A stretch of DNA of 64,000 nt from Dictyostelium discoideum (taxonomy: Eukaryota): positions 1,536,001-1,600,000 of the forward strand of contig CM000152.2 in assembly GCA_000004695.1 (NCBI GenBank), given 5' to 3'. Shown here in pieces: positions 2,571-46,473 of the stretch; the first letter of the stretch is position 1, and every line of letters begins with the position of its first letter. The notes beneath the pieces were generated by a model. The model was not told the origin of the DNA. It worked only from the letters and a program-made list of their open reading frames with translations, and searched no databases. The position numbers were made by a program, and so were the translations under genes.

Positions 2571-2870
2571 ATGCAATCTTCAAATCCATTTGAAAATAGT
2601 GGTAGTTCTGGTGGTGGAGAAGGGAGTGAAGATACTAAAGATGATTTTGTACTATTAAAAAAAGATGAAGACCCAACAATTCAAAGTACTTTAATAAAAA
2701 GATTGGATTCAATTCAACAACAGGATCATTTAAAAAAGAAACAAGATTTAGATACAAAAAGTAATGAAAGTAGTTCAATATGTGGTGCTTCTCCATTTGA
2801 AGTTTCAAAAGAGGATCATAGTAATTTAAAATCTGCAAATGATTTAAAACAAAAAGAAAATCAAAAATTA

Positions 2871-2963
<93 letters not shown>

Positions 2964-3094
2964 GAACAACAACAAGAACAAGAACAATTTGGACAACAAT
3001 CAACCAATGAAACAATATCTTTACCATTTTCAAATAATAATGAATCAATTGTAAATTTAAATAATCAACAACAACAATCAACAGAAATAATAAA

Positions 3095-3126
<32 letters not shown>

Positions 3127-3599
3127 ACCAATTTGTATCAGTTCCATTTAGTCCACCATTAAAACCATTTTCATTAGAAAAAATAGAATCAAATTCAGAG
3201 TTACCATTTATTAGACCAGATAATTATGAAAGTACAAATTATCCTCATAATACAACAACCAACTCAAATAGTGGTATTTTAAATCCAGGAATTGATAGAG
3301 CATACTATAATATGAATTCAAGGATTGGTAGTAACATTCCATTAGATGATGATAATGCAAATCCATTCGCTCGTATTACCACAGCTGTTGACCCAGAAGT
3401 CGAAGTTAACAATGATGATGATGAAGCTGGTCCAATGGTTAATATAAATATCAATCCTGGTACTTTTGCAGAACCAAACGGTGCAGAAGTTCCTGTAGTA
3501 ACAAGAAGAAGAAGAACCGATGATAAAATAGGTGTCATTATAATGTGTACTATAATTATAATTATTATTGGTGGTTGTATTGCATTTTTATTCATTTAA
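2571..3599 (+). CDS. Hypothetical protein (342 aa) with a long poly-Q tract, six NPF/xPF motifs and a C-terminal hydrophobic transmembrane anchor.
   Basis: Single uninterrupted ORF from the track. It starts MQSSNPFENSGSSGGGEG. The (CAA)n run at 2875..2972 encodes about 32 Q. The last 23 residues (IGVIIMCTIIIIIIGGCIAFLFI) are a predicted TM segment directly before the stop, so it is tail-anchored-like. Repeated NPF, SPF, LPF and VPF tripeptides are present. Confidence 0.6.
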
Positions 3600-3736
3600 A
3601 TGTAATTTAAAAAAAAAAAAAAAAAAAAAACAAATTTAAAAATAAAAATTAAAAATAAAATAATAATTTCTTTTAAAGTAAAAAAAAAATAATAATACAA
3701 TAAGAATTTTTATTTAAAAATTTTTATTTTATTTAT

Positions 3737-4123
3737 TTATTTTTTAATTGCATGAAGTAAATAATTAACATTTAAATCATTTGTAAAATCCCATTCACAA
3801 GTTAATGGATTATAAACTAAACCTTTAAGATCAGTGATTTGACAATTATTTGAATCAAAATAAGATTCTAAATCCTTTGGTTTTATAAATTGATCCCAAT
3901 GATGTGTTCCAACTGGTACCATTCTAAAAATATATTCAGCACCTAAAATCGCAGAGATATATGATAAAAATGTTTTATTAATTGTTGATATAAATATACT
4001 ACCACCTGGTTTAACTATTTTACTTAAATAATCTATAAATTGTTTTGGATTATCAACATGTTCAATCACTTCTAATGAACAAACTGCATCAAATTGTTGA
4101 TCATTTTCAATATTATAAAAATT

Positions 4124-4171
<48 letters not shown>

Positions 4172-4795
4172 TATATTAATATATTTAATTATTTAATTAT
4201 TTTATTATTTATATTTACCAATTGTTGATTCTAAATAATTTAAAGATTTATTTTGAATATTTTCATTTAATTTTTGATCGAATGATGCATGTGAAATTGC
4301 CATTAAAATATTATTTTTAGCAGCATCTAAACCAACGACTTTAGAAGCACCTAATCTACTTAATGATTCTGTTAATAATCCAACACCACAACCAACATCA
4401 ATTACATTTAAACCTTCTAATGGTAAATGAATTGGATTTTTTGAAACTTTTTCATTATAAATCTTTAATCTATCACAAATATATTTAACTCTAAATGGAT
4501 TCATTCTATGTAATGGTTTCATTGTTCCTTCTGGATTCCACCAATCTGAAGATTGTTGATTAAAAAAATCAATTTCATCTTGTCTTAATGTTGTTGTTGT
4601 TGTTGTAGTGGTATTATTACTATTATTATTACTATTGGATGTTGTTGTAAAATATTTATTACTAATAAATTTACTACTACCACTACTACTACTACTACTA
4701 TATATAATTGATTGTTTTTGTGATTTTATTAAATTATTTATTAAATTTGGTTTATTTAATCTTTGACAAGATTTGCTAATTAAATGATAAATCAT
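3737..4795 (-). CDS. coq3: Ubiquinone biosynthesis O-methyltransferase (COQ3/UbiG family), 2 exons: 4795..4219 and 4125..3737. The intron is 4126..4218.
   Basis: Exon 1 encodes an N-terminal presequence-like region, then HRMNPFRVKYICDRL and the SAM-binding motif I, VIDVGCGVGLLTESLSRLG. Exon 2 encodes FDAVCSLEVIEHVDNPKQFIDYLSKIVKPGGSIFISTINKT...YIFRMVPVGTHHWDQFIKP, which is typical of COQ3/UbiG. The intron has a GTAAAT donor and TTTTTTTAG acceptor. Splice phase is consistent (phase 1). Confidence 0.85.
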
Positions 4796-5077
4796 TGTTT
4801 TTTTTTTTTTTATTTTTTTTTTTTTTTATTTTATCTTTTTTCGAGTTGATAGGAGTAATTTGACAATAAAATATTTTTTTATTTCATTTTTTTTTTTTTT
4901 TTTTTTTTTTTTTCATTTTTATTTTTTAATTTTTTTTTTTTTTTTTCATTTTTATTTTTTTTTGAAATTTTTTTTTTTTTTTTTTAAAAGGTTGTTGTTC
5001 ATATTTCACGGTGAGGCGATAGGAAAGGGTAAAAAAAAAATAAAAATAAAAATAGAAATAAAAAAAAAAATAAAAAA

Positions 5078-5766
5078 ATGAAAATCAGAGAAATTATACC
5101 ATTATTAAGTTCAAATCCTCTCTTTTCAAAAACACCACAATCATCACAAAAACCATCATCATTCACAAGTGAAAATAATGAATTATCATTCACAGCAAAA
5201 AATTTTTTATCAGTAAATAATCAATCATCAGAAATTTATTATTATTCACCAATTGAATGTAAATTATATGTAATTAAAGTAGAATCAACTTTAGATAATA
5301 CAATTTGTGCAATTAGATTTCAGGTAAATATTATAATTATTATCATAATTTATTATTATTATTATTATAATTTATTAATAATTAATTAATTAATTACTTA
5401 ATTAAATTAATAATAATAGGAATTAAAATTAAAAATCAATTTTGAAGTTTATAAAATTGAATTGAATGAAGATTCTAGATATCTTTGTATTTCAGGACAT
5501 GTAAATTGTATAATTGTTGATTTAAATCCTCAAACTGTAAATTCATATTTCACAAGTCAAGAGATTTTCTCTGATCAAGAGAATAAAACCTTTGGTTATG
5601 ATTCATTAACAGTTAGAAGTTTTACATTAGATAAAACTTTTTATCAATCTCAAATTTCAAATATAATTAAACAAGTTGAATGGCATCCATTAAGTAATAT
5701 TCATTTAGTAATTTTATATTCAAATAATACTTTAAAGTAAGTGTGTTTGTTTGTTTTTGTTTTTTG

Positions 5767-5797
<31 letters not shown>

Positions 5798-6534
5798 TAT
5801 AAATTATGTATATATATGTTCATTTTTAATTTCTAATTTTTTATTTTTTACTTTTATTAGAATTTATAATATTCAAAGTGGAAATGAAGAAATTGAACAG
5901 ACATTTAATTTAGAATCAATTCATACATTTGAATCATTAAAGAATTTAAAGAATAATGATATTAGAAATCAAACAAAGAATACCAAGAAATTCATTTCAT
6001 TTTGTTTTGGTTCAAATATTAATTTTTGGACAAGATTCACAATATTTTTATTAAGTGATTCTGGCGAAATCTTTAATCTTTGTCCAGTAATTCCAAATAA
6101 TTGTTTAGTTGAAACTAGTTTTTATAGGGATTTTCAAAATCATATTTTATATGAAAAAAATCAAATTGAAAATAATAGCGGTAGTGGTAGTAGTAATGGA
6201 GATGATAGCGATGAATTTATAAAACAACAACAACAACAAAAAAAATATTATGATTTTCAATTTAAATGGTTAATGGCAGCATCAATTAATACAATACCAT
6301 TTGAGATTGAAAATGTAAGTTGGTTAAAATTATCATCACCATCAAATAGTAGTACTACTTTTAATCCACTACTTCAAGGTCCAATTTCAAGGATATCAGA
6401 TTCATTACCACCATCATCAAATAGAGTACCTCTTAAAATTTTATCAATTCAACCATTAGTTTCAAATATAGATCAAAATTCAAATTCTTCAATTATAAAT
6501 AAAATTAATAATAATAATAATAATGATGACGATG

Positions 6535-6605
<71 letters not shown>

Positions 6606-6794
6606 GATGATGAAAAAAAGAAACATAATTTATCATTATCATCAACAAATAAATTAATACCATTTGTAATTATAGTTTTAATGGAATCTTGTGAAAGTTT
6701 AGTAAATATTTGTTGTCAGGATACTATTCCAATGTGGTCAAATGATAATGGTATTTTATATTTAGAGGAAAATAATAGTAATAGTAATAGTAAA

Positions 6795-23804: not shown

Positions 23805-27341
<3,537 letters not shown>

Positions 27342-27774
27342 ATAATTAAATAAAAAAAAAAAAGAATTAATAATAAATAAACAAATAAAAAAATGAATAA
27401 ATAAAAAAAAAAATAAAAAAAAAAGATGAATTTTATCTATTTTTAAATTTTTAGGGTAGTTTAATTATTTAATTTGTTTTTATTTTTTTATTTATTTTGA
27501 AAAATATCTATATAAAAAAATATATGTAAATTTTAAAAATAAATTAAATAAATATGAAAAAAAATAAAAAAAATAAAAAAAAAAGTGTCAAGATTAAGAA
27601 AAAAATGAAACAATTGTTTTTTTTGATTTTTTTTTATTTTTATTCTTTTTTTATTTTTTTTTTTTTTAATTTTTTAATTTTTTTTTTTAATTTTGATCAA
27701 TTTGAAATTAATTTTAAAAAAAAAAAAATTCTTTTCATTTATTTAAAATTCAAATTATCAACAACATGGCAGAA

Positions 27775-27811
<37 letters not shown>

Positions 27812-28577
27812 TTTCAACACCACCACATCAAAAACCACATTTAACAACTGGTTTAAGAACTTCAAGTTCTGGTTTATTAATGGATAAAAGAAGACAAGAT
27901 GAAGAGTATGTGTTTAAATATTATTTCATTTTTTTTTTTCATTTTTTTTTTTTTTTTATTTATTACAATACCTTTTTTTTTTTTTTTTTTTTTCTTTTTA
28001 TTTATATTATTTTATTATTATTTTTTTTTTTTTATATTGTAATTTGTTATTGATAAATATTTTTTTTTGTTTTGTTTTGTTTAATTTTTTTTTTTTTATT
28101 TATTTTTTTTTTATTTTTTTTATTTTTTTATTTTCATCAGTATTATCCTTTTTTGTGCAAATAGTGGTTAATGAACCCACATAAAAAAACATGATGAATA
28201 TTTTTTATAATCCCTTTAAGATTATAAAAAAAAAAAAATAATAATTAAAACCATTTATATTTATTGTCATTGTTGATTATTAGTATTTATATTTAATAAA
28301 TGGTATTTTATTAGTTGGTCTATTTATTATTTAACCCTAAAATAAAAAAAAAAAAATAAAAAAATTATAACAGTAATAATCAATAAAATAATATAAATAA
28401 AATAAAACAAATAATATAAATAAAATAATACAAATAAAATAATATAAATAATTTAAGCAAAAAATAATATAAATAATATTAATAAAAAAAAATACTATTT
28501 AAACTTGATATTAATTTTTTTCTTTAAATTTTTTTTTTTCTTTATTTTTTTTCTTTAATTTTTTTTTTTTTTTTTAA

Positions 28578-30821
<2,244 letters not shown>

Positions 30822-30939: not shown

Positions 30940-31083
<144 letters not shown>

Positions 31084-31689
31084 ATTATAATTATATTTAC
31101 TAAGAAAAAAAAAAAATTTGGGTTTATTCTATTTAAATTATAAAAATGTATATTACTTGTTTTGGTCCTTTAATAAATAAGAGTTTTTTAAATTAATATT
31201 TTTTTATATATTTAATAGATTTTGGATGTCATTTTTTTTATTTTTTATACATTTTTTATTTTCTTTTTGGGTTAAGGTGTATAATTATTAAGTGGGGTTA
31301 TAGTTTGTTGTTGTGGTTTTGGGCCTTTAAACATTCTATTACCACTATTTCCTTGAAAATTATTATTATTATTGTTATTTTTAAGGTATTATTCTTTTTT
31401 AATTTAAATTATCGGATAGAATTTTAATTTAATTAAAATATAAAATTGTTATCATAATTATTAATTTTTATTAAGATATTGCTGTTGGAATGGTACTACG
31501 AAGGAGTCAGATGATGATTAATTAAATGAATTGGTAGAAGGAGATATTTTTGTCCTGATTTTGAAAATTTATAACAAAATGATTTCGTTAATTATTTGCC
31601 GATTTTTTTTTTTATTTTTAGAGTAATAATTATTATTCTAGAATAGCTAGTTTGTAACGCTTGTTGGTTAGCTTCGAGTATGAGAGTTT

Positions 31690-32180
31690 TTCATCTATGT
31701 TCGGTTCGTCGCTATACAGTTGATTGCATATCCAAACCTAAATTTTATGCAATATTAACGCTTTTATTTTTCTATATGCTGAATGTTCTGGATAAGTCAT
31801 AGTTTACACATTTATATCCCCATTCGAAGTATTCTTTATGGAATCTAAGGTTTGCGTAATCTATGTTAATTTCATGATCCATCTTCATGTTTGGAGGCAT
31901 TATTGTTTTAATTGTGTTGGTGGTTTTATTGTTGGATCTAGTTATTTGGTGTTTTCAATTTTTTCTGCGGCATGTGGTAATGTATATAAAGTTTTTCAAA
32001 CTATAGGTTGTATATTCTAATGTTCTTTTACATTTAAAGAAGAGGTGGCCATATGGGTCTTCATTACATAGCATACAATTTATAAGGTGAATATAGTTTA
32101 ATGGTAGACATCTTGCATGAAATCTAAACGTCGTATCTTTTGTTTTAATAAACCTTTTTTTTTTTTTTTTTTTTTTTTGA
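31690..32180 (-). mobile_element. 5-prime-truncated fragment of a TRE3-like non-LTR retrotransposon (3-prime part of ORF2). The left boundary is uncertain and may extend toward about 31200.
   Basis: 31690..32160 aligns by eye at about 65-70% identity and collinearly to 33250..33720 of the full-length element. Shared strings include ggtggccatatgggtcttc, gcatg[ag]aatctaaac and tcttttgtttta. A (T)24 run at 32155..32178 abuts its high-coordinate end. That run is the poly(A) tail of the next copy upstream. Confidence 0.45.
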
Positions 32181-32281
32181 TAAATAAACTATTGTAGTAT
32201 ACAATTAGTATATTATTTTTATTTATTTATTTTAGGTTTTTTAGTTTTTGTGAATTTAAAATGGAATGTTATTTTAGATTG

Positions 32282-32757
32282 GGTAATTAATAATTAATTG
32301 GTGGTGGAATTGTTGGAATTGGTTCATTTGTGATTATGCTCCATTCTTTTTTAAATTTTTTGATGGTTTAGGACCATTGGGTTTCTTTTTGAGTTTTTGT
32401 GAGTTGTTTTTAAGTGAGTTTTGGTTATAGATAATGTTCTTGAATATTCCAATTAGCTTGTGCCATTTTGATTTTAATATATCATAATCTAGTATTGTGT
32501 TTTTTATTTGATTGTTCCGATTATCAATTGATTGAGTTATATTGATGTCAAATAATGATTTGCATATCCATATCCATATTTGGTGAATAACTAATGAGAT
32601 TATGTTCCAATATGCATGTGTTTTGACTAGATCAAGATTTGTGTTTATATAATTCCAGTAGAATCTGTATTTTTTATTTTGTGCGTTTTCAGCAAAATTA
32701 ATAAACCAATGAACCAATTCCAACAATTACACCACCAATTAATTATTAATTACCTAA
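32282..32757 (-). mobile_element. Second 5-prime-truncated TRE3-like fragment (C-terminal 130 codons of ORF2 plus about 100 nt of 3-prime UTR and a poly(A) tail at 32155..32178), bracketed by a 48-bp inverted repeat.
   Basis: The track ORF at 32334..32726(-) reads ...HQIWIWICKSLFD...KSKWHKLIGIFKNI. This parallels the full-length ORF2 C-terminus ...HNIWIWICNQIYSED...LKKWHKLATLEYI. The left arm 32282..32330 (ggtaattaataattaattggtggtggaattgttggaattggttcattt) is the reverse complement of 32707..32754, matching 46 of 48 nt. Confidence 0.5.
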
Positions 32758-32814
32758 CCTAAAATAACATACCATTTTAATAAACCGAAATTCGTAAAAT
32801 TTTTTTTTTTTACC

Positions 32815-32827
32815 TAAAAGCGGTGTA
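32815..32827. repeat. Left copy of the 13-bp target-site duplication (taaaagcggtgta) flanking the full-length retrotransposon.
   Basis: An identical 13-mer occurs at 38031..38043 at the other end of the element. Immediately inside it is the element poly(A) tail (T-run on + strand, 32828..32894). Confidence 0.6.
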
Positions 32828-32831
32828 TTTT

Positions 32832-32899
<68 letters not shown>

Positions 32900-32997
32900 T
32901 GGATTAACAAGATTGATATATGTCCATCTGTGTTAATACGAGTTTTTATTTAATATTTATTTATAGGCTTATCATTTAAGCTGAAGGGTTATTTTAA

Positions 32998-35900
32998 TCA
33001 TATGAATTGATCAAAAGATATAATATTTGGGAGAGATGATTCTGGAATACAATAGTAATTAGCTGTTGTTTTTCTTAGCTTGATCGTTGAGGTGAGAAGG
33101 ATCTTAGGGTCTTTGAAATTATTATGGTCTTTTGCTGATAAGTTTTTCAGGTCTTTTGCTTTTTTGATGTATTCTAGAGTGGCCAATTTGTGCCATTTCT
33201 TTAGAAGGGAGCTGTATGATAGTGATTCATTTGTTAAAGGATCTTCACTGTATATTTGATTGCAAATCCAAATCCAAATGTTGTGGAGGATAAGGGCCAT
33301 TAGGTTTCTATATGCGAATGATCTGGTTAGATCATAGTCTATTGCTTTATAGTTCCATTCAAAGTATTCTTTGTGGAATCTGTGGTTGGCGTAGTCTGCA
33401 TTCACTTCTTGATCTTTTTTGGCTGTCGGTGATAATTTTGGAGTTATTCTATTAATGAAATTGTTATTTTGCCTAATTCTTGTATGGTGCCAGTTTTTAC
33501 CTTTGCCTGTGGTAATATAGATGAAATTTTTGAGTTTATTTATTTTTATGAATTGTTTTGTTTTCTTGCATGAGAAGAACAGGTGACCGTATGGGTCTTT
33601 GCTCATATCTTCTTTGCAGAGTGGACATTGTTTGTTGTGAAGGTAGTTTATTGGAAGGCATCTGGCATGGAATCTAAACATTGTGTCTTTTGTTTTAGGG
33701 TCTTTTATCTTCAGTATGTTGTTGAAGAGTTGATTATAGCTGTAGCCTCTTAAGTTTAGAGATGATTGGAATTCCGTTTTAGGGATGGTTAAATTTTGGT
33801 CTTGAATTGTGGTATACCATTCTGCCAGTGAAAGTGGTTGTCCATTTTCGTTTTTTATGGATGTGAGATTATTGTTGAAGATTGCTTTTTTTATTCTTAT
33901 TTTGTTCCATTCGTCTAAGTTTTCTTTTAGGTATCTGGATGTGAATTTGTTTTTTTGGATCTGATATTCCCAGCTTTTGTGATGCGATGAGTTTGTTTGT
34001 TTGGTTTCTAGTGCTAGGATGAACTGGTTTATGATCCAAAGTTTCTGCGCCAGTTGTCTCAATTCTATATTCCAAATGTTCCAACCCCCTACTTTTAGTG
34101 GGTATCTTGCTCTTTTGGTTCTCATTAAATTAATAACTTGAAATCCACTAGCATTTTTGTTGTTTGGTGCCGATAAAAACCATTCGACTAATTTATTGAT
34201 TTGGTTTAATTCCTCTTCCTTAAAGTTCTCTACATATGAATAGTAGGTTAATTTAGAGAGTGCGAATGCTTTGAGGATGTTGGTTTTGGTTTTGATTGTT
34301 GAGTCAGTGGTTTTCCATAGTACTAAGGATGATCTTATTGTGTTTAATATTTCTGGCATTTTTCTTGTTATCCCTTTGCCTGTGAAGAAGTATCCCAAGT
34401 ATCTTTCTGGATTTGTAGATATTGGAATTCTTTGGTTGGTATTGTCTGGGTTGCCTATAAGAATTGATGAAGATTTGTCGATGTTTAGTTTTGAGGAAGT
34501 GGCTTTGCAAAATGAATTGAAGTGTTGTAGTACTAATTCAAGTTGTTGAAAGTCTGGGACCATTGAAGCCGAGTCGTCTGCAAAGCTTTGGAATTTCTCT
34601 CTGTGGTTGCTGTTGTTTAGAGGAAGGCCAGTAATTCGGTCATCTTGTAAAATTTTTCTAGCTAAAGCCTCTATTACAAGGACGAACAGGGTGGGTGATA
34701 GTGGATCTCCTTGTTTAACTCCTCTTTTGATCTCAAAGGGTATAGTAGTTCTACCATTAATTTCAATTCTTGCTTCAGATTTGGTGAGTAGATTCATTAT
34801 CAGGTTGATTATATTGGTTGGAATGTTGATGTGTTGTAGTGATCTGAGTATTGAACCGTGTGAGATCGAGTCAAAAGCTTTTTCGAAATCATATAGTGTA
34901 ATTATTCCGTTAATTCTTTTATCATTACAATAGTTGATTAATTCGTTCATTGATATGATATTATCTAGAATGAATCTGCCTGGTACGAAACCTTTTTGAT
35001 TGTGGTTGATCACTTTCGTTAGTATTGGGATTATTCTATTGTTTATTAGTTTTGAGTGGATTTTATATATACAGTTAGCCAGTGTAATTGGTCTTCTGTT
35101 TTTGATTAGTTCGGGGTCTCCCTTTTTAGGTATCGTGATAATGAGGCCTTCTTTGTAATTTTTGCTAATTAGATGAGGATTTCTTAGAGTGTCGTTGAAT
35201 GCTGAGGCCAGTATTGGAGCTAGTTTTTCTTTGTGTGTTATGTAGAATAAGTTTGGAATTCCATCTGGGCCTGGAGATTTGTGTGGGTTCAATTGTTTTA
35301 TTACTTCTAGGATCTCTTGTGATGTGAATTCATTTTCAAGGTTGTCCCATGTTGAGTCCCTGGTCACTGTCCAATTTTCCAACATTTCATAATGAGATGG
35401 TGGGTCATCTTCTTTGTAGTCATAAAGATTTGAGTAATATTTTACGTATTCTTCTTCGATCAATTCCTGTTTGTTGATTGTTCTACCTTGTGCATCTTTT
35501 ACTGCGTTGATGGTGAAATCATTGTGTCTTTTCTTGATTCTCGCGGAGATGTACTTGAGTGAGGTTTCTTCGCAATAGTTGTTCAATTCTTGTTTAAGTT
35601 GTTCTTCTCTTTTTTTAGATTCATTTATTGCTGAAAGGGTTGCGAAGGCTTGGTCTTTAAATTCTGTCTCTAGTAGGGAGATTAGATTTTTGATGTTTGC
35701 CTTATTGTTGTAGTCATTTTGTTTTTGAAATTCTGTGTATAGTTGTTTTATTTTGTTTAGTAAGCTGTTGAGTTGAGAGAAGGAAATAGAGTTATGGTTG
35801 GATGACAGCTCCCTTGAATAATCGTTAAGTAGGAAGTCTATTTTCTTAAGCATTATGCTTGAGAGGATTGAGGATTTTTTTAATCTCCATCTGCGCTTGT

Positions 35901-36702
35901 TCATCTGTATGTTGGGTAGAGTGAAGGTGGTTGATAGGAAGTTGTGATCTGATAGAGGTATGTCATTAATTTTTGGGGGGATTAGGTTCCTTAAGTATAA
36001 TTGGCTGTAGTTGATTATGCTATTGTTAAGGTATATTCTGTCTAGTCTCCTTTCCAAGATTCTTGTGAGGTTATTGTTTGTGTTGTGTATCGTTCTTGAG
36101 AAGGTGGGTCTTTTATTTAGTTGGTCCATATCCATTAGGTTATTTGAAATTCTGATGGCTTCGATTACTGTGGCCATCTCATCTGGGGATTGTGTTGTCA
36201 AGTTGCCTTGGTCATCATTTGATGTGTGATTGTCATTGAAGTCTAAACAGTTGAAGTCGCCTGCTATGATGTCGATGTTTTTATTAGGGTTAGACGTTAG
36301 GTTGTGGTATTGGTTGTTGAAGTGTTTGTTTAGTGTTGAAGCTAGTGTTTTTCTTTTATCAGGTTGGGCCGGGGCGTATATGGCCAAGATTCTCGTTGTG
36401 GTATCTTTTATTAGAATGTCTGATATTATTAGTCTACCTTCTATTATGAATATTGGTGAGAGTTTTATGTTTTGGTTGTTGTGGTTTAGTATTCCTATTC
36501 CGTTGCCTCTGTTGGTTGCGCTAATGATGGAGCCAGGAAATAGCTGGTGTGCTTGTGTTGCGTCGGCGTTGAGTTCATTGACTATGGTTAGTGCCAATGA
36601 GTTTGGGGGGGATTGGGATTTGATAAAGTCTGTTTTGTTTTTGAAGGAGGTGTCAGTGCCCCAACCTCTGACATTCCATTGGTTGATTTTGATTACTACC
36701 AT
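32998..36702 (-). CDS. Retrotransposon ORF2 polyprotein (1234 aa): apurinic-endonuclease-like domain, reverse transcriptase and a C-terminal CCHC zinc knuckle. Apparently intact.
   Basis: Track ORF. The N-terminus MVVIKINQWNVRGWGTDTS... is an EEP/APE nuclease fold start. The central part has RT blocks (…LIKNRRPITLANCIYKIHSKLI…, …GVKQGDPLSPTLFVLVIEAL…, …SFADDSASMV…). The C-terminus has HARCLPINYLHNKQCPLCKEDMSKDPYGHLFFSCKK. Confidence 0.85.
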   Translation of the reverse strand: MVVIKINQWNVRGWGTDTSFKNKTDFIKSQSPPNSLALTIVNELNADATQAHQLFPGSIISATNRGNGIGILNHNNQNIKLSPIFIIEGRLIISDILIKDTTTRILAIYAPAQPDKRKTLASTLNKHFNNQYHNLTSNPNKNIDIIAGDFNCLDFNDNHTSNDDQGNLTTQSPDEMATVIEAIRISNNLMDMDQLNKRPTFSRTIHNTNNNLTRILERRLDRIYLNNSIINYSQLYLRNLIPPKINDIPLSDHNFLSTTFTLPNIQMNKRRWRLKKSSILSSIMLKKIDFLLNDYSRELSSNHNSISFSQLNSLLNKIKQLYTEFQKQNDYNNKANIKNLISLLETEFKDQAFATLSAINESKKREEQLKQELNNYCEETSLKYISARIKKRHNDFTINAVKDAQGRTINKQELIEEEYVKYYSNLYDYKEDDPPSHYEMLENWTVTRDSTWDNLENEFTSQEILEVIKQLNPHKSPGPDGIPNLFYITHKEKLAPILASAFNDTLRNPHLISKNYKEGLIITIPKKGDPELIKNRRPITLANCIYKIHSKLINNRIIPILTKVINHNQKGFVPGRFILDNIISMNELINYCNDKRINGIITLYDFEKAFDSISHGSILRSLQHINIPTNIINLIMNLLTKSEARIEINGRTTIPFEIKRGVKQGDPLSPTLFVLVIEALARKILQDDRITGLPLNNSNHREKFQSFADDSASMVPDFQQLELVLQHFNSFCKATSSKLNIDKSSSILIGNPDNTNQRIPISTNPERYLGYFFTGKGITRKMPEILNTIRSSLVLWKTTDSTIKTKTNILKAFALSKLTYYSYVENFKEEELNQINKLVEWFLSAPNNKNASGFQVINLMRTKRARYPLKVGGWNIWNIELRQLAQKLWIINQFILALETKQTNSSHHKSWEYQIQKNKFTSRYLKENLDEWNKIRIKKAIFNNNLTSIKNENGQPLSLAEWYTTIQDQNLTIPKTEFQSSLNLRGYSYNQLFNNILKIKDPKTKDTMFRFHARCLPINYLHNKQCPLCKEDMSKDPYGHLFFSCKKTKQFIKINKLKNFIYITTGKGKNWHHTRIRQNNNFINRITPKLSPTAKKDQEVNADYANHRFHKEYFEWNYKAIDYDLTRSFAYRNLMALILHNIWIWICNQIYSEDPLTNESLSYSSLLKKWHKLATLEYIKKAKDLKNLSAKDHNNFKDPKILLTSTIKLRKTTANYYCIPESSLPNIISFDQFI

Positions 36703-37955
36703 TATGAGATGATATCGATCTCCTCTTGGGAGTCGTATAGCTGCGGTTTGGATGGTGAAGGGTAGATACTCTCTATGAAGCTCTCAATGATTCCTTTCCT
36801 TTCTTTTTTGACAGGTGTCTTAGGGGTGGATGGGATGTAAGGGTTGCTTCTGTTTATTGTTGGTGAGAGTTGGGTGACCTCGTTGTTTGAGTGGATTTCC
36901 TCGTTCTTGCGTTTATGTGATGGAGGGATGTTTGGTGTCTTCTCTCTGTTTTCCGAGGATGAATGGATGTTAGTGCTCGTTTTGTTGGCATTGTCTTTTT
37001 GGATGGCGTTGGATGTTGTGGTAGTGGTTGTGGTGGGTTTGACAGATTGAGATTCTGCTTGGTTTTTGGGGGGAAGAGGTTGAGAGGACTTTTTTGATTG
37101 GGCTTTTTTCTCTTGGGTTGATTGTTTATCAGACTTATTGTTTGCTGGGTTGTTTGTTTGTTGTTGTGGTTTTGGTTGAGAGGATTTGATTGCTATCCTG
37201 TTTTGGATGTTGGGAGGATCATCTGTCATCTCATCTTCTAATGGTTCTTCCGTGTTGTTTGACTCTACTTTCTTATTTTTCTTTTGAGAGGAGTAGGTTT
37301 TGGTGGCCGTTCTGATGGTAAAGTTGGCGATTTCTGTATTGTGTTGGCCAGATTTCATTTGATCGCCTATTTTGCATTCTATTAGACCGAATACTAGGAG
37401 GTGGTCGGTGGAGTATGTAGTATGGTATATTGCATAGGGTATTTCTTCTGCAAAGGCAGTTTTGATGAGGGCGTCCACTATTCCTGCCTTTTCTCTTGGA
37501 ATTCTTACTCTTCCTGTGAGGACGTGGTAGTCTCTACTGGAGGTGATGAAGGTTCCCAATTTGCTTCTATCTCTAATGATATTTAGGAGAGATTGTTCGT
37601 TTTTAATCATCAGGTGTATCATTTTTCTAGTTCCTTTGCCTATGTATATCTTGTCGATTGGGATATCGTAGTTTGAGAGTGTTTTTCTCATTTCTTCTAA
37701 CCCCATGAGATCCATTTTGGGGAATTCGAGTGTAATTGGGTAGAATCCGTTGTTTTTCTCGTAGGTTGAGAGCGCAGTCATGTTCAATATGGTCTCGCAG
37801 TATTTGGAGATGTCTTTGAGGCCTATTGATAATTTGGGGTAGGTCTCCTTTATCTCTGCTGTTTTTGTGGAGAATTCCTTAATGAAGTTCTCTGATGCCT
37901 CGTCCATATGGGTGGAGGGGTTGGCCATTTTAGCCGCGTCTGCGTAGGAATTCAT
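36702..37955 (-). CDS. Retrotransposon ORF1 protein (417 aa), with a basic S/T/Q/K-rich C-terminal half (nucleic-acid-binding-like).
   Basis: Track ORF directly upstream of ORF2 and overlapping it by 1 nt. There is no stop or frameshift. The C-terminal half is lysine/proline/threonine-rich, as in ORF1 proteins of TRE elements. Confidence 0.8.
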   Translation of the reverse strand: MNSYADAAKMANPSTHMDEASENFIKEFSTKTAEIKETYPKLSIGLKDISKYCETILNMTALSTYEKNNGFYPITLEFPKMDLMGLEEMRKTLSNYDIPIDKIYIGKGTRKMIHLMIKNEQSLLNIIRDRSKLGTFITSSRDYHVLTGRVRIPREKAGIVDALIKTAFAEEIPYAIYHTTYSTDHLLVFGLIECKIGDQMKSGQHNTEIANFTIRTATKTYSSQKKNKKVESNNTEEPLEDEMTDDPPNIQNRIAIKSSQPKPQQQTNNPANNKSDKQSTQEKKAQSKKSSQPLPPKNQAESQSVKPTTTTTTTSNAIQKDNANKTSTNIHSSSENREKTPNIPPSHKRKNEEIHSNNEVTQLSPTINRSNPYIPSTPKTPVKKERKGIIESFIESIYPSPSKPQLYDSQEEIDIIS

Positions 37956-38030
37956 CTCGATGGGATTCCTTTGAATCGGCGATTTGGTAAGTTAGATCTG
38001 TAGATCGTGGTGGATTGGTGATTTTTTTCG

Positions 38031-38043
38031 TAAAAGCGGTGTA
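38031..38043. repeat. Right copy of the 13-bp target-site duplication (taaaagcggtgta).
   Basis: Identical to 32815..32827. It lies between the element 5-prime end and the tRNA. Confidence 0.6.
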
Positions 38044-38072
38044 ACGAAATTCGTAAAATAAATATTTTTTAT

Positions 38073-38077
38073 AAAAA
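38073..38077 (-). terminator. Pol III terminator T5 run, 5-9 nt downstream of the tRNA-Cys 3-prime end.
   Basis: - strand reads GGAACT-t-ccaTTTTTat right after the acceptor stem. Confidence 0.5.
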
Positions 38078-38081
38078 TGGA

Positions 38082-38153
38082 AGTTCCGAACCAGGATTGA
38101 ACTGGCGACCTAACGATTTGCAGTCGCTTGCTCTTCCACTGAGCTATCGAAAC
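38082..38153 (-). tRNA. tRNA-Cys (anticodon GCA).
   Basis: The reverse complement folds as a canonical cloverleaf. Acceptor: GTTTCGA/TCGGAAC, 7 bp with one G-U. D arm: GCTC-AGTGGAA-GAGC. Anticodon arm: AGCGA-CT-GCA-AA-TCGTT. T arm: GCCAG-TTCAATC-CTGGT (TTCRANY loop). The discriminator is U73, as expected for Cys. A-box (TAGCTCAGTGG) and B-box (GGTTCAATCC-like, here AGTTCAATCC) promoter elements are present. Confidence 0.85.
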
Positions 38154-38902
38154 TTGTTGAAATTTTTTAATGAGACCTTTTTTTTTGAATTGGAGAATTT
38201 TTTAATGAAACCTCTCACTTTCATTACAATTATCTTAAATTTGTGTCAAATAATATTTCAAATAATAATTTTATTAATTTCAGCAAAGATTAAAAATAAT
38301 ATTTTTTATTTAATTTTATAATTAATAATTATGTCACTCATTTAATTTATTATAAATATAAAAAAATAATTTAATTTTAATTCAGGTTGTTATCTCATTG
38401 TTAAGCGATAAAAGATATTAAATAAAAATATATATAAATAAATATAAATATAAATATAAATATAAATTAATATATAAAGTGTTTTAAAGATTATTTAATA
38501 TAAAATAAAGATTAAATTTTAAATAAAAATTATAATATTTGTAACATAATTACAAAAGACCACTTTCGTTACAATTTGTGGTTTAACAGCCCAACCTAGC
38601 CAATTTTAAGTCAATGGTTCGTTTCTGGGTTAAAATCTAATATGCCAAAATAAAATTAATTTGTCAAATTAAGATATTTAAAGTTTAAAATTTAGCCAAA
38701 AATTTTCATTTTTTTACAAAAAAGAATTATAATATAATAAAAAAAAGCCAAAAAGATATGTTTTACAATAAATAAATTAAGTATTTACAATTTTATTTAA
38801 ATTTTAAAATTATTAGGAATTTTAATTTGTATTTGTTTTTAAATTAATTAATATTTATATATTAATATTAATTATATATATACATATTGATTACTATTCC
38901 AA

Positions 38903-42224: not shown

Positions 42225-42923
42225 TTAGTTGTCAGCAACTTTTTTGGTTTGGAGACCTTTGAAGCTCTTGACGATGACTAATGAAGCAACAGTGTATAAT
42301 TTTTCAGTTGCGTTTTCATCTTCGTTTCTCTTTCTTGAGAGGGTGACACGGACTCTGTGTGGAACGTTCTTGATACCTTGGCTCCATAAGAATTTGTTTA
42401 ATTTGTTATCAATACGGACATCTTTGGTACCCATGATCTTTTGAGCAAAGAGCTTGACTTGTTTGACAGCTTTTGGGGCTCTATCCTTGAAGGTACTAAA
42501 TGATTTGAAGTAAAAATGATGATGATGGTTAACAATCTATTTTATTTAAATATTTATTTTATTTGACAAGGGGACCAGATGAATTGTAAAAGTATAAAGA
42601 CTCTCTAAAAGTACGTAGTGGTGTGATGGTAGGTTGTGTTACGACACAACCCCCACTACGTAAAGAGGTGGCAGAATATCTGCTCTTGTATACCCTATTG
42701 AAACAGTAATAATATTATTACTACTGTTTACAATAGATACAAAACACCTGACTCCTTGCAAAATGTAATAATCCTTTATCCTGAATCTATATTTACTTTA
42801 ATCTATGGATTAAAGATAGATTGACTAGGAATAAGATATCAATTAACATTTTACATACGTTCCGTAGAGTCTCTTGTGGAGATTGATGGTGTATTCTCTG
42901 GTGACGGCTTCAGATGATGACAT
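42225..42923 (-). CDS. rpl31: 60S ribosomal protein L31 (eL31). Two exons: 42923..42859 and 42495..42225, separated by an unusually long and GC-rich 363-nt intron.
   Basis: The encoded protein [21 protein letters not shown]|[74 protein letters not shown]... is collinear with eukaryotic eL31 (…[81 protein letters not shown]…). The GTATGT donor and ATTTAG acceptor are in phase 2. Confidence 0.85.
42600..42790. ncRNA. Candidate structured non-coding RNA (snoRNA-like) embedded in the rpl31 intron. The strand and class (H/ACA or C/D) are unresolved.
   Basis: About 45% GC over 200 nt inside an otherwise AT-rich genome. Nested perfect stems: acgtagtgg...ccactacgt (9 bp) encloses ggttgtg-ttacga-cacaacc (7 bp) with an asymmetric internal loop. 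A second long imperfect hairpin is ttgtata..ctattg-aaacagtaataat/attattactactgttt-caatag..atacaa. A TGATGATGATGG (C-box-like) string lies at 42516 on the + strand. See findings. Confidence 0.3.
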
Positions 42924-43625: not shown

Positions 43626-45456
43626 CTAGATATGAGATTTTTGAGAGACCAATTCTGAAAAAGCAGAGTCTATACATTTTTTTAAATCTTTATAACTGAC
43701 TACCAAAAGTGATTGTTCATCTCTAGACATTAAAAGTATTTTTTCATCGACACCACAATCCAATTTATTGAGGGTTTCAACAACATGGTAAAAGTCGAGC
43801 ACAGGAGTACCATCATCGTAGACTTGATGAAAGATGTAGTCACGAAACAATTTGATTAGATACCTATCACCAGTTTCAGACCAACGTGGATCCATATCAT
43901 AGAGTGGACGTTCATTGATGAAACCCAACTTTGTAACCAATCTAAAGAGACGACCATTCTCATATTCTTTAGAGAGTTCAGTCTCGAGGTCATCAGTGTA
44001 GGTATGAAGATAATTATTCTCTTGCAAAAGTCTTCCACTAATCATCAACACCACTTCATCGATATTTGGTAGGTTTATAACTGGTTTGGTTAATAGATAT
44101 ACAATTAGATTATACAATTCTTTACTATACTGATTTGATACATATTCGATTGATTTCGAAAGATTGGTAGTAGTAGTTGATTGAGCGGATCTACATGCCA
44201 ATGTCAATATTAATCTACCAAATAACAATAGATCTTCATGTTGATACTGTGCTAAAATACGTGGAGTATCGAAATTCACCACATCAAATATACCAACACC
44301 ATTCATTCGAATCCTATTCTTTCCAGTTAATAATATCTTACTTGGATGAATTACACGACAAACTAATCCTGCTGAATGAATTGTCTTTAATGCTGATGTA
44401 ATTTGACATATAAAACTCCATAATACACTTTCACTTAATGGATTACCACTTTGACTTAGATATTTACTTTCCAATGTTTCTGATCCTGGGAAAAATTCAT
44501 ATGTAAAAAATAATGCTAAAAAAATAAAATAAAAAAATACAATTAATAAATAAAATAAAAATTTTATATTATTATTATTATTATTGTTATTATTGTTTTT
44601 TTTTTACTTACAACTATTATCACCAAATTCTTTACTAACAAAAATTTCTTTTAATGATACAATATTTGGATGTTGAATATTTCTCCAAGTTTCAGCAGCT
44701 TGTAATGCATACTCACTTGATAGTCTAAAACCTTCAACTCTTCTAATTGCATAAGGTAAACCATCCAATGTACTAATAGCTTTATATACTGAAGTTATAT
44801 ATCCAAACATTTTACCTTGGTTTTCTCTTGATGCATCATGATCTAATGGATATAGTGAATGATATTTATTTAACATTGGTGGTATATTTTTAATTCTTGG
44901 ATCTAATTTTTTTTTATTTTTTTATTATTAATAATAAAAAAAAAAAAAAACAAAAGGGTGATCAATAATTAATAAAATTAAAATATATGGAAATATTTTT
45001 TTAAATTTTCTTTTTTTTTTTTTAATTTTTTTTTTTATAATTTACATACCATTTGGGTCAAGAGTTAAATATAATAATGATTTTTGATTTAAAATATCTT
45101 GTTTTAAAGATTCAGACATAAAGAAAGAACCTATATTTCTTCTACCTGGTTTATTTCGAATTACTGATTGTGAATAGGATGGGTATGGTGTATATGATTG
45201 ATTGATTTGTGCTTGTTGTTGTGCAGCTTGAATTTGTTGTAAATGTTGTTGAAGTTGTAATTGTAAAAGTTTATTATTATTATTTTGTAATGATGGATTT
45301 TGTGCTAAAGGTTGTGATGATGGTTGTTGTTGCTGTTGTTGTTGTNNNNNNNNNNNNNNNNNNNNNNNNNNNNNNNNNNNNNNNNNNNNNNNNNNNNNNN
45401 NNNNNNNNNNNNNNNNNNNNNNNNNNNNNNNNNNNNNNNNNNNNNGATAAACCGCC

Positions 45457-45487
<31 letters not shown>

Positions 45488-46266
45488 GCTGTGATGATGA
45501 TTGTGGTGAAGGATTTGGTTGCTGGAATTGTTGTTGATATGATTGTGGTGATGCATTTCTCATTTGTGCTGCTACAAAATTATTAATCTGGAATTGATTA
45601 TTCATATTTGGATCAATACCATTATTTGGTTGTGGTTGTGGTTCCTATATTTTTTCACATATTTATGTGAGTCAGAATTTATACATATAAAAATAAGTAA
45701 ATAAGTAAATAAATATAAATAAATAAAGGTAATAATTATTATAGATTATTTCAACATACATATTGATGTTGTTCATAATCATCCACTGAGTTATCACCAT
45801 AAGGGTATAAATGCTGATCATCGTCATAATTTTGTTGCTGTTGTTGTTGTAAAAGTAATGCTTGCTGCTGTTGTTGTTGTAATAGCTGCTGTTGTTGTAA
45901 TTGTTGTAATTGCTGTTTTGGTATATATTCTGGTATTCCTGATTGAAAATGATCTGCCCAATGATGATTTGTTTGTTGATTTGTACTTAAATTTTGAAAT
46001 GATGTTGTTAAATTATCTCTATTAAAGTGTGTGTGTATGTATGTATGTATGTATGTATGTATGTATGTATGTATGTGTGTGTGTGTGAAATGATATTATT
46101 AGTAAATAAACAAAGGTATATATCTGAATAAATATCTAAAGTATATAAGATATTAAAATGATCTATACATTGGAGATTTCTTTAATGGTGATGCTATATT
46201 ACTGTTTGGACTAATTATTGGGTTATTTGATGTTGCTGTATTATTACTTCCATTGCCGTTTGAATT

Positions 46267-46364
<98 letters not shown>

Positions 46365-46473
46365 GCTGAGGTGTTAATTCGTGACTAAATTCGCATTTAT
46401 CACTATTTCGACAATAACCATGTAGTGCAATATTTTTACATTGTTTTTGATTTTTTGGTTGTTGTTGATACAC
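43626..46473 (-). CDS. pan3: PAN3, the regulatory subunit of the PAN2-PAN3 poly(A)-specific deadenylase. Five exons: 46473..46169, 46018..45760, 45644..45050 (interrupted by the 100-N gap), 44902..44612, 44515..43626.
   Basis: The N-terminal CCCH zinc finger is CKNIALHGYCRNSDKCEFSHE. The pseudokinase, coiled-coil and C-terminal knob regions are collinear with metazoan PAN3, for example GYITSVYKAISTLDGLPYAIRRVEGFRL, SLFFTYEFFPGSETL (compare SLVFAYDFHAGGETM), LWSFICQITSALKTIHSAGLVCRVIHPSKILLTGKNRIRMNGVGIFDV, NGRLFRLVTKLGFINERP and WSETGDRYLIKLFRDYIFHQV. Introns are at GTATAG (unusual), GTATGT, GTATGT and GTAAGT, with phases 2, 0, 1, 1 consistent. Long poly-Q tracts. Confidence 0.8.
45346..45445. 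other. Assembly gap: exactly 100 N inside the poly-Q-encoding third exon of pan3.
   Basis: Literal n-run. The (CAA/CAG)n repeat on both sides probably caused the assembly break. The reading frame across it is unknown. Confidence 0.95.

What the first reader, a model, noticed from the sequence alone, without database searches (positions are those of the whole stretch)
31200..38160. tRNA-Cys with a stack of TRE3-type retrotransposon insertions: one intact full-length copy plus at least two older 5-prime-truncated copies
All three element-derived segments are co-oriented with the tRNA (- strand) and lie on its 3-prime side. The full-length copy is nearest: its 5-prime end is about 50 nt from the tRNA end. 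Behind it, after about 70 nt of spacer, comes fragment B (32282..32757) with its own 3-prime UTR and a (A)24 tail at 32155..32178. Behind that is fragment A (31690..32154 or further). Fragment A overlaps the ORF2 region covered by fragment B, so it is a separate copy. This is the repeated, position-specific integration downstream of a Pol III gene that is established for Dictyostelium TRE3 elements. The nearest copy has the youngest-looking structure: intact ORFs, a long homopolymeric tail and a perfect TSD. The fragments are about 30-35% diverged from the full-length copy, so they belong to other TRE3 subfamilies or to much older events.
Basis: partly seen in the sequence, partly recalled or inferred. 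Interest (0 to 1): 0.5.

Follow-up and report, generated by a model that had tools for sequence, protein, structure and literature searches.

The report
Retrotransposon pile-up behind a tRNA gene
A Dictyostelium tRNA-Cys gene is followed by a head-to-tail stack of three or four insertions of the tRNA-targeting TRE3 retrotransposons; this is a well-documented, ordinary feature of this genome.

Summary
tRNA-Cys(GCA) lies at 38153..38082 on the minus strand. Co-oriented behind it are three parts.

- **Large copy:** a 5.1-kb L1-type element (38030..32895) with intact ORF1 (417 aa) and ORF2 (1234 aa), an A61 tail and a perfect 13-bp target-site duplication (TSD), starting 51 nt from the tRNA end.
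- **Fragment B:** 32774..32155, with an A24 tail and a perfect 12-bp TSD.
- **Fragment A:** 32146..~31604.

A and B both cover ORF2 residues 1103-1172, so they are separate copies. They belong to two further subfamilies.

Corrections:
- The "full-length" copy lacks the first 89 nt of the canonical 5' UTR.
- B is more diverged than stated (34-40% amino-acid identity). Its first 76 nt are an inverted duplicate of its own 3' UTR.
- A second perfect 14-bp repeat encloses the large copy plus 17 nt and an A12 run. This is either a fourth tiny insertion or parental flanks copied along with the element.

Relatives sit downstream of, and co-oriented with, eight other tRNA genes, often stacked. The canonical length (5221-5223 nt plus 5' A's) matches published TRE3-A (5229 bp). 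TRE-TRE tandems are already described. Ordinary; low interest.

The parts
38082..38153 (-). tRNA-Cys (GCA) gene, with internal B box GTTCAATCC at 38102..38094
   Evidence: Rfam RF00005, 61.4 bits; ARAGORN; B-box pattern
38059..38081 (-). 23-nt tRNA trailer with the T5 Pol III terminator (38077..38073)
   Evidence: Read from the sequence
38045..38058 (-). Outer direct repeat R1 (TTTTACGAATTTCG), 5' copy
   Evidence: Found only here and at 32799..32786 in the 64 kb
38031..38043 (-). TSD of the large copy, R2 (TACACCGCTTTTA), 5' copy
   Evidence: Found only here and at 32827..32815; shuffles expect 0.01 matches
32895..38030 (-). TRE3-A-like non-LTR retrotransposon, 5136 nt, lacking the first 89 nt of the canonical 5' UTR. 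Remaining 5' UTR is 38030..37956; 3' UTR is 32997..32895.
   Evidence: 98.7% identical to another D. discoideum copy and 94.6% to D. citrinum copies; missing 5' stretch measured
36702..37955 (-). ORF1, 417 aa, no known domain
   Evidence: same length as in intact D. citrinum copies
32998..36702 (-). ORF2, 1234 aa: APE-type endonuclease motifs, reverse transcriptase, C-terminal CCHC knuckle. Its ATG overlaps the ORF1 stop (TAATG), placing it in the -1 frame.
   Evidence: RVT_1 E=4.8e-33 and a weak full-length Exo_endo_phos match; human LINE-1 ORF2p E=3e-50; overlap read
32828..32894 (-). Poly(A) tail of the large copy: A61 + T + A5. The run is A38 in a second assembly.
32815..32827 (-). TSD R2, 3' copy
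32800..32814 (-). GGT + A12. Either the end and tail of a 30-bp mini-insertion (T-R2-GGT-A12), or a 3'-transduced flank plus the true tail.
32786..32799 (-). Outer repeat R1, 3' copy
32775..32786 (-). TSD of fragment B (GGTTTATTAAAA), 5' copy
   Evidence: Found only here and at 32154..32143
32179..32774 (-). Fragment B: 5'-truncated copy of a distant TRE3-type subfamily. ORF2 C-terminal remnant at 32699..32337, then 3' UTR. Its 5' end (32780..32705) is an inverted duplicate of 32331..32256.
   Evidence: tblastn E=3.5e-10 to ORF2 residues 1103-1176; no similarity to the TRE5-like proteins; inverted repeat of 76 nt at 93%
32155..32178 (-). A24 tail of fragment B
   Evidence: identical in the second assembly
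32143..32154 (-). TSD of fragment B, 3' copy. Its last 4 nt (AAAA) are the first bases of fragment A.
31621..32146 (-). Fragment A: degenerate 5'-truncated copy of a third subfamily (ORF2 residues ~1003-1178), with one frameshift near 31779 and in-frame stops
   Evidence: tblastn E=2.5e-48, 58% amino-acid identity; blastn 66.6%; ~69% to the L006 family; stops seen
31604..31620 (-). A5-T-A11: probable tail of fragment A. No convincing TSD was found.
   Evidence: Read from the sequence; low confidence

Best explanation
This is a TRE-TRE tandem: repeated, independent, position-specific insertions of Dictyostelium TRE3 non-LTR retrotransposons just downstream of one tRNA-Cys gene.

**Mechanism (established for L1-type elements; inferred here).** Each event is target-primed reverse transcription. 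The ORF2 endonuclease nicks the target, and the poly(A) RNA is copied from its 3' end. Copying often stops early, which gives 5' truncation. Staggered nicks give the TSD.

**Reconstruction.** Removing each insertion in turn puts every target site 24-51 nt after the tRNA end.
1. Fragment A came first, with its 5' junction at about +45.
2. Fragment B then landed on A's 5' junction (TSD at +37..+48).
3. The event marked by the outer repeat R1 followed (TSD at +24..+37).
4. The large copy is the closest to the tRNA and the youngest.

Each newcomer pushed older copies away from the tRNA.

**The large copy.** It is most likely TRE3-A. It is coding-competent but lacks 89 nt of 5' UTR, so it may lack its own promoter.

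**The three families.** The large copy, A and B come from three different TRE3 subfamilies.

**Shown versus inferred.** Shown: anatomy, TSDs, homology, and the behaviour of relatives at other tRNA genes. Inferred: the order of B relative to the large copy, the B-box guidance, and the subfamily names.
For: **Anatomy and TSDs**
- Each of the three perfect repeats (13, 14 and 12 bp) occurs only at its two junction positions in the 64 kb.

**L1-type coding capacity**
- RVT_1 at E=4.8e-33, plus a full-length but weak endonuclease match.
- Human LINE-1 ORF2p at E=3e-50.
- The motifs WNVRG, NE, GDFN, SDH and the CPLC...H....C knuckle are readable in the translation.

**Multi-copy Dictyostelium family**
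- 99% identity to a cluster of 79 ORF2 proteins that includes AX4 genes.

**TRE3 behaviour of relatives**
- Copies lie downstream of and co-oriented with tRNA-Ser, -Leu, -Arg and -Lys in D. citrinum. Distances are 106-145 nt, and 315 nt where another element sits in between.
- In D. discoideum, copies lie 83 nt from tRNA-Asp, 88 nt from one tRNA-Arg and 49 nt from another tRNA-Arg.

**Stacking is common**
- L010 has three TRE3-A pieces in tandem.
- L011 has a near-full copy at +49 followed by two more fragments.
- L001 has two copies in tandem.

**Subfamily**
- Canonical length is 5221-5223 nt plus 5-11 extra 5' A's.
- Published lengths are TRE3-A 5229 bp, TRE3-B 5279 bp and TRE3-C 4734 bp (PMC5006619 Table 1).
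- ORF2 sits in the -1 frame with a TAATG overlap. A -1 frameshift is reported for TRE3-A (PMC5911963).

**Not an assembly artefact**
- A second D. discoideum assembly carries the same 3' junction, the same B and the same A.

**Literature**
- TRE3 lies 40-150 bp downstream in the same orientation (PMC5911963).
- 'TREs ... typically form TRE-TRE tandems' (PMC5391098; PMC5006619 supplement).
Against: - No Dictyostelium repeat library or reference TRE3-A to -D sequence could be searched. The names TRE3 and TRE3-A therefore rest on behaviour, length, frame structure and abundance.
- No strict external B box was found downstream of this tRNA. The insertion sites (+24..+51) are at the near end of the published range.
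- Fragment A has no identifiable TSD and ends about 290 nt earlier than the large copy would predict. Its 3' boundary is uncertain.
- Nesting proves only that the large copy lies inside the R1-flanked unit, and weakly that B followed A. The order of B relative to the large copy is inferred.
- No empty site from another strain could be obtained.
Confidence: 0.9

Rival explanations
1. Sub-rival for the R1/R2 nesting. The large copy was not inserted into a pre-existing 30-bp mini-insertion. Instead, the whole R1-flanked unit (T + R2 + element + A61TA5 + R2 + GGT + A12) is one retrotransposition of a read-through transcript. The transcript came from a parental, already 5'-truncated copy elsewhere, and it carried the parent's two TSD copies along as short 5' and 3' transductions.
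For: - The outer 14-bp repeat is perfect and directly follows an A12 run, the signature of a single target-primed event.
- The interrupted tail A61-T-A5 creates AATAAA about 17 nt before the GGT|A12 junction, the spacing expected between a polyadenylation signal and the cleavage site (read).
- At L011, a composite (near-full copy, A29, ~65-nt spacer, 138-nt 3' fragment, A35) is flanked by one 10-11-bp repeat (TATGAAGATA). No repeat is present at the inner junction. This suggests 3' read-through co-mobilisation happens in this family.
- A copy lacking 89 nt of 5' UTR would need an upstream transcription start.
Against: - It requires both a 5' and a 3' transduction, each extending only 1 and 3 nt beyond the parental TSD.
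- No parental copy with the TACACCGCTTTTA junction was found among the 11 loci held, although only part of the genome was sampled.
- Sequential insertion at the same distance from the tRNA is exactly what this family is known to do. A 13-bp TSD falling inside a 17-nt earlier insert is not unlikely given the narrow target window.
- Six of the L011 repeat's bases could be microhomology with the element.
Confidence: 0.4
2. Fragments A and B are rearranged pieces of one older element, or of the large copy, rather than separate insertions.
For: They are adjacent, co-oriented and both derive from the ORF2 3' region.
Against: - Both cover ORF2 residues 1103-1172.
- Judged against the large copy's ORF2 over that region, A is 63% identical and B only 40%; B also carries a 10-residue insertion that A lacks.
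- B has its own A24 tail and a perfect 12-bp TSD.
Confidence: 0.02
3. The element is a TRE5-type or unrelated LINE that sits near the tRNA by chance.
For: No repeat library could be searched. D. discoideum has about 418 tRNA genes, so proximity alone is weak evidence.
Against: - Eight further loci show the same downstream, co-oriented placement.
- The TRE5-like relative is only 29-30% identical and has the opposite geometry.
- The length matches TRE3-A.
Confidence: 0.03
4. The stack is an assembly artefact: repeat copies from elsewhere were collapsed into, or misjoined at, this locus.
For: - Within the element, the window differs from the second assembly at 20 of 4470 positions, against 16 per 19 kb in the flanks. 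Sixteen of the 20 cluster at element positions 824-1868.
- This hints that one assembly borrowed reads from another copy, or that gene conversion occurred.
Against: - The order, junctions, TSDs, fragment B and fragment A are the same in an independent assembly.
- All junctions carry TSDs that reconstruct one continuous pre-insertion sequence.
Confidence: 0.02

Closest known systems
TRE3-A (Tdd-3) of Dictyostelium discoideum
   Same: - Two ORFs, with ORF2 in the -1 frame and the domain order APE-RT-zinc knuckle.
- Oligo(A) tail and TSDs of variable length.
- Downstream of and co-oriented with tRNA genes.
- Canonical length 5221-5223 nt plus 5' A's, against the published 5229 bp.
- It is the most abundant TRE3-type ORF2 cluster recovered.
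   Different: - This copy lacks the first 89 nt of the 5' UTR.
- It sits 51 nt from the tRNA, which is the near end of the published range (14-228 for TRE3-A).
- Identity to a reference TRE3-A sequence was not tested.
TRE-TRE tandems at previously targeted tRNA genes (Spaller et al. 2016, PMC5006619; Spaller et al. 2017, PMC5391098)
   Same: Several TREs lie head to tail behind one tRNA gene, each with its own tail. The same pattern is seen here at L001, L010 and L011.
   Different: - The literature says tandems form 'without integrating into each other'.
- Here the large copy sits inside a 30-bp R1-flanked unit.
- B's TSD includes the first 4 nt of A.
Other TRE3 subfamilies (TRE3-B, -C, -D)
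   Same: Fragments A and B and the L006 element are TRE3-type by ORF2 C-terminal homology (IWIWIC and KWHKL motifs) and by position.
   Different: - Which fragment is which subfamily could not be decided.
- A is 59-63% identical to two families.
- B is an outlier at 40% with a 10-residue insertion. It is possibly TRE3-C, which is reported as the most divergent (PMC5006619).
TRE5-A/B (upstream-targeting relatives)
   Same: Same superfamily and the same ORF2 domain order; both target tRNA genes.
   Different: - TRE5 inserts about 50 bp upstream in the opposite orientation.
- The TRE5-like relative found (L007) is 29-30% identical.
Human LINE-1 insertion variants (5' truncation, 5' inversion by twin priming, 3' and 5' transduction)
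   Same: - 5' truncation in all copies.
- Microhomology at 5' junctions.
- An inverted 5' segment in fragment B.
- Possible transduced flanks around the large copy.
   Different: - B's inverted segment duplicates sequence that is also present in direct orientation. Classical twin priming inverts upstream sequence instead, so B looks more like a snap-back or template switch.
- L1 has no tRNA targeting.

Membership tests
TRE3 (tRNA-gene-targeted retroelements, 3' type) | Non-LTR, L1-type element with two ORFs; ORF2 carries APE endonuclease, RT and a zinc finger | tested here: met
   RVT_1 E=4.8e-33 and Exo_endo_phos weak but full-length; LINE-1 ORF2p E=3e-50; endonuclease motifs and CCHC knuckle read in the translation. 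A single-sequence PDB search of the endonuclease domain alone found nothing.
TRE3 (tRNA-gene-targeted retroelements, 3' type) | Integrated downstream of a tRNA gene (40-150 bp; 14-228 for TRE3-A) in the same transcriptional orientation | tested here: met
   51 nt after tRNA-Cys on the same strand. Relatives lie 49-145 nt after seven other tRNA genes, co-oriented. Published ranges are from PMC5911963 and PMC5006619.
TRE3 (tRNA-gene-targeted retroelements, 3' type) | 3' oligo(A) tail and flanking TSD of variable length | tested here: met
   A61TA5 with a 13-bp TSD; A24 with a 12-bp TSD; A12 with a 14-bp repeat
TRE3 (tRNA-gene-targeted retroelements, 3' type) | ORF2 groups with reference TRE3 sequences rather than TRE5 in a phylogeny | not testable with these tools
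   No reference TRE sequences are available. Indirectly, ORF2 is 58% identical to a second TRE3-like family and 29-30% to a TRE5-positioned element.
TRE3-A subfamily specifically | Consensus length 5229 bp, with ORF2 requiring a -1 frame shift relative to ORF1 | tested here: met
   Full copies are 5221-5223 nt plus 5-11 5' A's. TAATG overlap places ORF2 in the -1 frame.
TRE3-A subfamily specifically | High nucleotide identity to the reference TRE3-A/Tdd-3 sequence | not testable with these tools
   No reference is held. dictyBase IDs of cluster members were not found in any searchable paper.
TRE3-A subfamily specifically | This copy is full-length | tested here: not met
   It lacks the first 89 nt that are present in six complete copies; a seventh copy, L011, lacks only the first 23 nt.
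TRE3 targeting via B box or external B box | A B-box landmark upstream of the insertion site | tested here: inconclusive
   The internal B box GTTCAATCC lies 72 nt before the element. No strict external B box follows this tRNA, whereas L003, L009, L010 and L011 have one at about +29..+34.

The most novel reading that the evidence does not exclude
The large copy may be a daughter of an already 5'-truncated, promoter-less TRE3-A copy. Under this reading, the parent was transcribed from flanking DNA. The RNA was cleaved about 17 nt after an AATAAA created by the parent's own interrupted poly(A) tail. It was then retrotransposed together with both parental target-site duplications. That would show that truncated TRE3-A copies stay mobile through read-through transcription, and that TRE3 elements transduce flanking DNA. 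The L011 composite hints at the same process.
Probability: 0.35. Interest if true: 0.3.

Novelty: already known. Interest (0 to 1): 0.12.

Why it matters
This is a clean, fully resolved example of how tRNA-targeted retrotransposons pile up at a safe harbour in a gene-dense haploid genome. Four perfect or near-perfect junction signatures let the pre-insertion sequence be rebuilt base by base. It adds nothing new to the biology of TRE3. Two details are worth a specialist's glance: possible transduction of parental flanks by a promoter-less copy, and a snap-back-type inverted 5' end in fragment B.

Tried and rejected
1. **Naming the subfamily from databases.**
   - Exact look-ups of ORF1, ORF2 and the B ORF were not in the collection.
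   - Homologue names were only 'hypothetical protein'.
   - The Glöckner 2001 repeat paper is not held.
   - The RT alignment in the PMC5006619 supplement is an image.
   - dictyBase IDs of cluster members were absent from searchable papers and supplements.
2. **Empty-site comparison in other strains or species.**
   - Homologue searches with flanking 5'-nucleotidase and PAN3 exons returned no D. discoideum or D. citrinum proteins.
   - The single-exon 1178-aa neighbour was found in only one other assembly, which has the same stack.
3. **Searching for the source of the 17-nt mini-insert, or for a parental copy.** No match was found in 11 loci.
4. **Strict external B-box search downstream of the tRNA.** None was found.
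5. **PDB search with the endonuclease domain alone.** Only spurious hits were returned.
6. **Length of the second family from L006.** That copy is disrupted by insertions, so it gives no usable canonical length.
7. **Classical twin priming for fragment B.** Rejected, because the inverted segment duplicates sequence that is also present in direct orientation.
8. **The bacterial promoter/terminator scan.** It is irrelevant for this eukaryote.

Full report
**What is there**

The window is about 20% G+C and comes from Dictyostelium discoideum or a very close relative. The element's ORF2 is 99% identical to D. discoideum proteins. The whole region is 99.5-99.9% identical to a D. discoideum chromosome assembly.

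One tRNA gene is present, tRNA-Cys(GCA), on the minus strand at 38153..38082 (ARAGORN; Rfam 61.4 bits). It has an internal B box GTTCAATCC and a T5 terminator.

**Anatomy on the minus strand, 5' to 3'**

| Coordinates | Part |
|---|---|
| 38153..38082 | tRNA-Cys |
| 38081..38059 | 23-nt trailer |
| 38058..38045 | R1, TTTTACGAATTTCG (5' copy) |
| 38044 | T |
| 38043..38031 | R2, TACACCGCTTTTA (5' copy) |
| 38030..32895 | Element body |
| 32894..32828 | Tail, A61 T A5 |
| 32827..32815 | R2 (3' copy) |
| 32814..32800 | GGT + A12 |
| 32799..32786 | R1 (3' copy) |
| 32786..32775 | GGTTTATTAAAA (B's TSD, 5' copy) |
| 32774..32179 | Fragment B |
| 32178..32155 | A24 |
| 32154..32143 | GGTTTATTAAAA (B's TSD, 3' copy) |
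| 32146..~31621 | Fragment A |
| 31620..31604 | A5TA11 |

Each of the three repeats occurs only at its two junction positions in the 64 kb. Shuffles expect 0.01 matches for the R2-containing 20-mer.

**The large copy**

- ORF1 (417 aa) and ORF2 (1234 aa) are open. They overlap as TAATG, which puts ORF2 in the -1 frame. Intact D. citrinum copies have the same ORF lengths and the same one-base overlap.
- ORF2 has a strong RVT_1 match and a weak but end-to-end endonuclease match.
- The closest solved structure is human LINE-1 ORF2p (E=3e-50).
- The endonuclease motifs and a C-terminal CCHC knuckle are readable in the translation.
- It is not full-length. Six complete copies (L001, L002-L005, L009) begin CCGTACCGCG..., and a seventh (L011) begins 23 nt into that stretch. 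All seven extend upstream of the point where the window copy starts (CGAAAAAAATCACC), which lies 89 nt into the canonical 5' UTR. The coding capacity is intact, but the 5' end of the 164-nt 5' UTR is missing.

**Family**

Relatives lie downstream of and co-oriented with tRNA genes at every locus examined.
- D. citrinum: tRNA-Ser, -Leu, -Arg and -Lys.
- D. discoideum: tRNA-Asp at 83 nt, tRNA-Arg(ACG) at 88 nt and tRNA-Arg(TCT) at 49 nt.

This is the defining TRE3 geometry: 40-150 bp downstream in the same orientation (PMC5911963). The only TRE5-positioned relative starts about 50 nt upstream of a tRNA-Arg on the opposite strand and is 29-30% identical.

Full copies measure 5221-5223 nt plus 5-11 extra 5' A's. 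The published lengths are TRE3-A 5229 bp, TRE3-B 5279 bp and TRE3-C 4734 bp (PMC5006619 Table 1). A -1 frame relation is reported for TRE3-A. I therefore call it TRE3-A with about 75% confidence. No reference sequence could be compared.

**The fragments**

- Fragment A matches ORF2 residues 1003-1172 (E=2.5e-48; 58% amino-acid and 66.6% nucleotide identity). It has a frameshift and in-frame stops.
- A is equally distant from the large copy's family and from a second family represented by L006. It is therefore a third subfamily.
- Fragment B matches residues 1103-1176 at only 34-40% identity, with a 10-residue insertion. It shows no similarity to the TRE5-like proteins. It is a fourth, more distant TRE3-type lineage.
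- A and B overlap on ORF2, and B has its own tail and TSD. They are separate insertions.
- B's first 76 nt (32780..32705) are a 93% inverted copy of its own 3' UTR (32331..32256). The duplicated sequence is also present in direct orientation, so this looks like a snap-back or template switch rather than classical twin priming.
- The five mismatches between the arms suggest B is appreciably older than the large copy.

**Reconstruction and order**

Removing the insertions in turn rebuilds one continuous ancestral sequence: tRNA, then TCCATTTTTATAAAAAATATTTA, then TTTTACGAATTTCG, then GTTTATTAAAA, then fragment A.
- Fragment A's 5' junction is at about +45 from the tRNA end.
- B's TSD is at +37..+48 and includes A's first four bases.
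- The R1 event's TSD is at +24..+37.
- The large copy's TSD falls at +39..+51 of the then-current sequence.

All events used a 30-nt window just behind the tRNA. The newest insertion is nearest the tRNA, as expected for position-specific integration. Two relations come from structure: A came before B (weak evidence), and the large copy lies inside the R1 unit. The order of B relative to the large copy is inferred from the family's targeting.

No strict external B box follows this tRNA, unlike L003, L009, L010 and L011. The internal B box, 72 nt upstream of the element, may therefore be the landmark. This is inference.

**The R1/R2 puzzle**

There are two readings.
1. A 30-bp mini-insertion (TTACACCGCTTTTAGGT + A12, with R1 as its TSD) came first. 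The large copy then integrated within it, with R2 as its TSD.
2. A single event copied a read-through transcript of a parental, already truncated copy, including both parental TSD copies.

Three observations favour the second reading:
- AATAAA is formed by A61-T-A5 about 17 nt before the GGT|A12 junction.
- A copy without its 5' end needs an upstream transcription start.
- The L011 composite is flanked by a single repeat.

- The family is known to hit the same spot repeatedly.
- The extensions beyond R2 are very short (1 and 3 nt).
- No parental junction is present in the 11 loci held.

**Robustness**

An independent D. discoideum assembly (L008) has the same 3' junction, the same B and the same A. 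Its tail is A38 rather than A61. Within the element it shows 20 differences, clustered at positions 824-1868. This points to gene conversion or repeat mis-assembly in one of the two assemblies, not to a different structure.

**Comparison with what is known, and verdict**

TRE3 elements, their downstream targeting and TRE-TRE tandems are described. [quoted passage not shown] PMC5391098 says the same. Tandems also appear in three of the other loci fetched here (L001, L010, L011).

It is an ordinary, already known feature of this genome. Interest 0.12; novelty: already known.

Noticed in passing
L005 1314..1559 (D. citrinum JBTAPK010000032.1): A ~216-nt poly(A) element lies between tRNA-Lys and a full TRE3-A-like copy. 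It begins with the canonical TRE3-A-like 5' end (AAAAAACCGTACC) and ends with a near-canonical 3' end (TTAATCTAATATT + A24). Its interior is unrelated to the element. It contains a T-arm-like GGTTCGAGTCTTGG...CACCA and has no Rfam match. It may be a SINE-like or chimeric passenger of TRE3-A.
   Followed up: partly
L002-L005 (D. citrinum), element bodies 1648..6781: Four full copies at four different tRNA genes are 100% identical over 5134 nt. This indicates either a very recent burst in D. citrinum or an assembly-polishing artefact.
   Followed up: partly
L011 1082..6450 (D. discoideum JBTAPE010000033.1): A composite consists of a near-full TRE3-A-like copy (lacking 23 nt), A29, a ~65-nt unrelated spacer, a 138-nt 3' fragment and A35. 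It is flanked by one 10-11-bp repeat (TATGAAGATA), with no repeat at the inner junction. This may be 3' read-through co-mobilisation.
   Followed up: partly
window 32895..37364 versus L008: The same locus in a second assembly differs at 20 of 4470 element positions, against 16 per 19 kb in the flanks. Sixteen of the 20 lie at element positions 824-1868. The poly(A) run is 61 versus 38. This points to gene conversion or repeat mis-assembly.
   Followed up: partly
window 45346..45445: A run of 100 N (assembly gap) lies inside a polyglutamine-coding stretch of a PAN3-like gene on the minus strand.
   Followed up: no
window 30940..31094: A long (ATT)52 microsatellite lies between the 5'-nucleotidase gene and the retrotransposon stack.
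   Followed up: no
window 27766..30821, 42225..42434, 43626..46473, 23805..27341: Host genes around the stack are a multi-exon 5'-nucleotidase (PF05761 relatives), a ribosomal protein L31e-like exon, a PAN3 deadenylase subunit and a 1178-aa Asn-rich low-complexity ORF. The stack sits in a ~7-kb interval between the 5'-nucleotidase gene and the tRNA.
   Followed up: partly
L006 7729..8500 (D. discoideum JBTAPG010000022.1): The 58%-identity TRE3-type family copy has a ~770-bp insertion that splits the ORF2 zinc knuckle. It also has about 900 nt between ORF1 and ORF2. No tRNA gene lies nearby, and it sits next to gypsy-type and DDE-transposase genes, probably in a repeat cluster.
   Followed up: no
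L010 2676..7384 (D. discoideum CM142510.1): Three TRE3-A-like pieces (285 nt, 3.3 kb and 1.1 kb) lie head to tail behind tRNA-Arg(ACG). This is another tandem stack, made of a single subfamily.
   Followed up: partly
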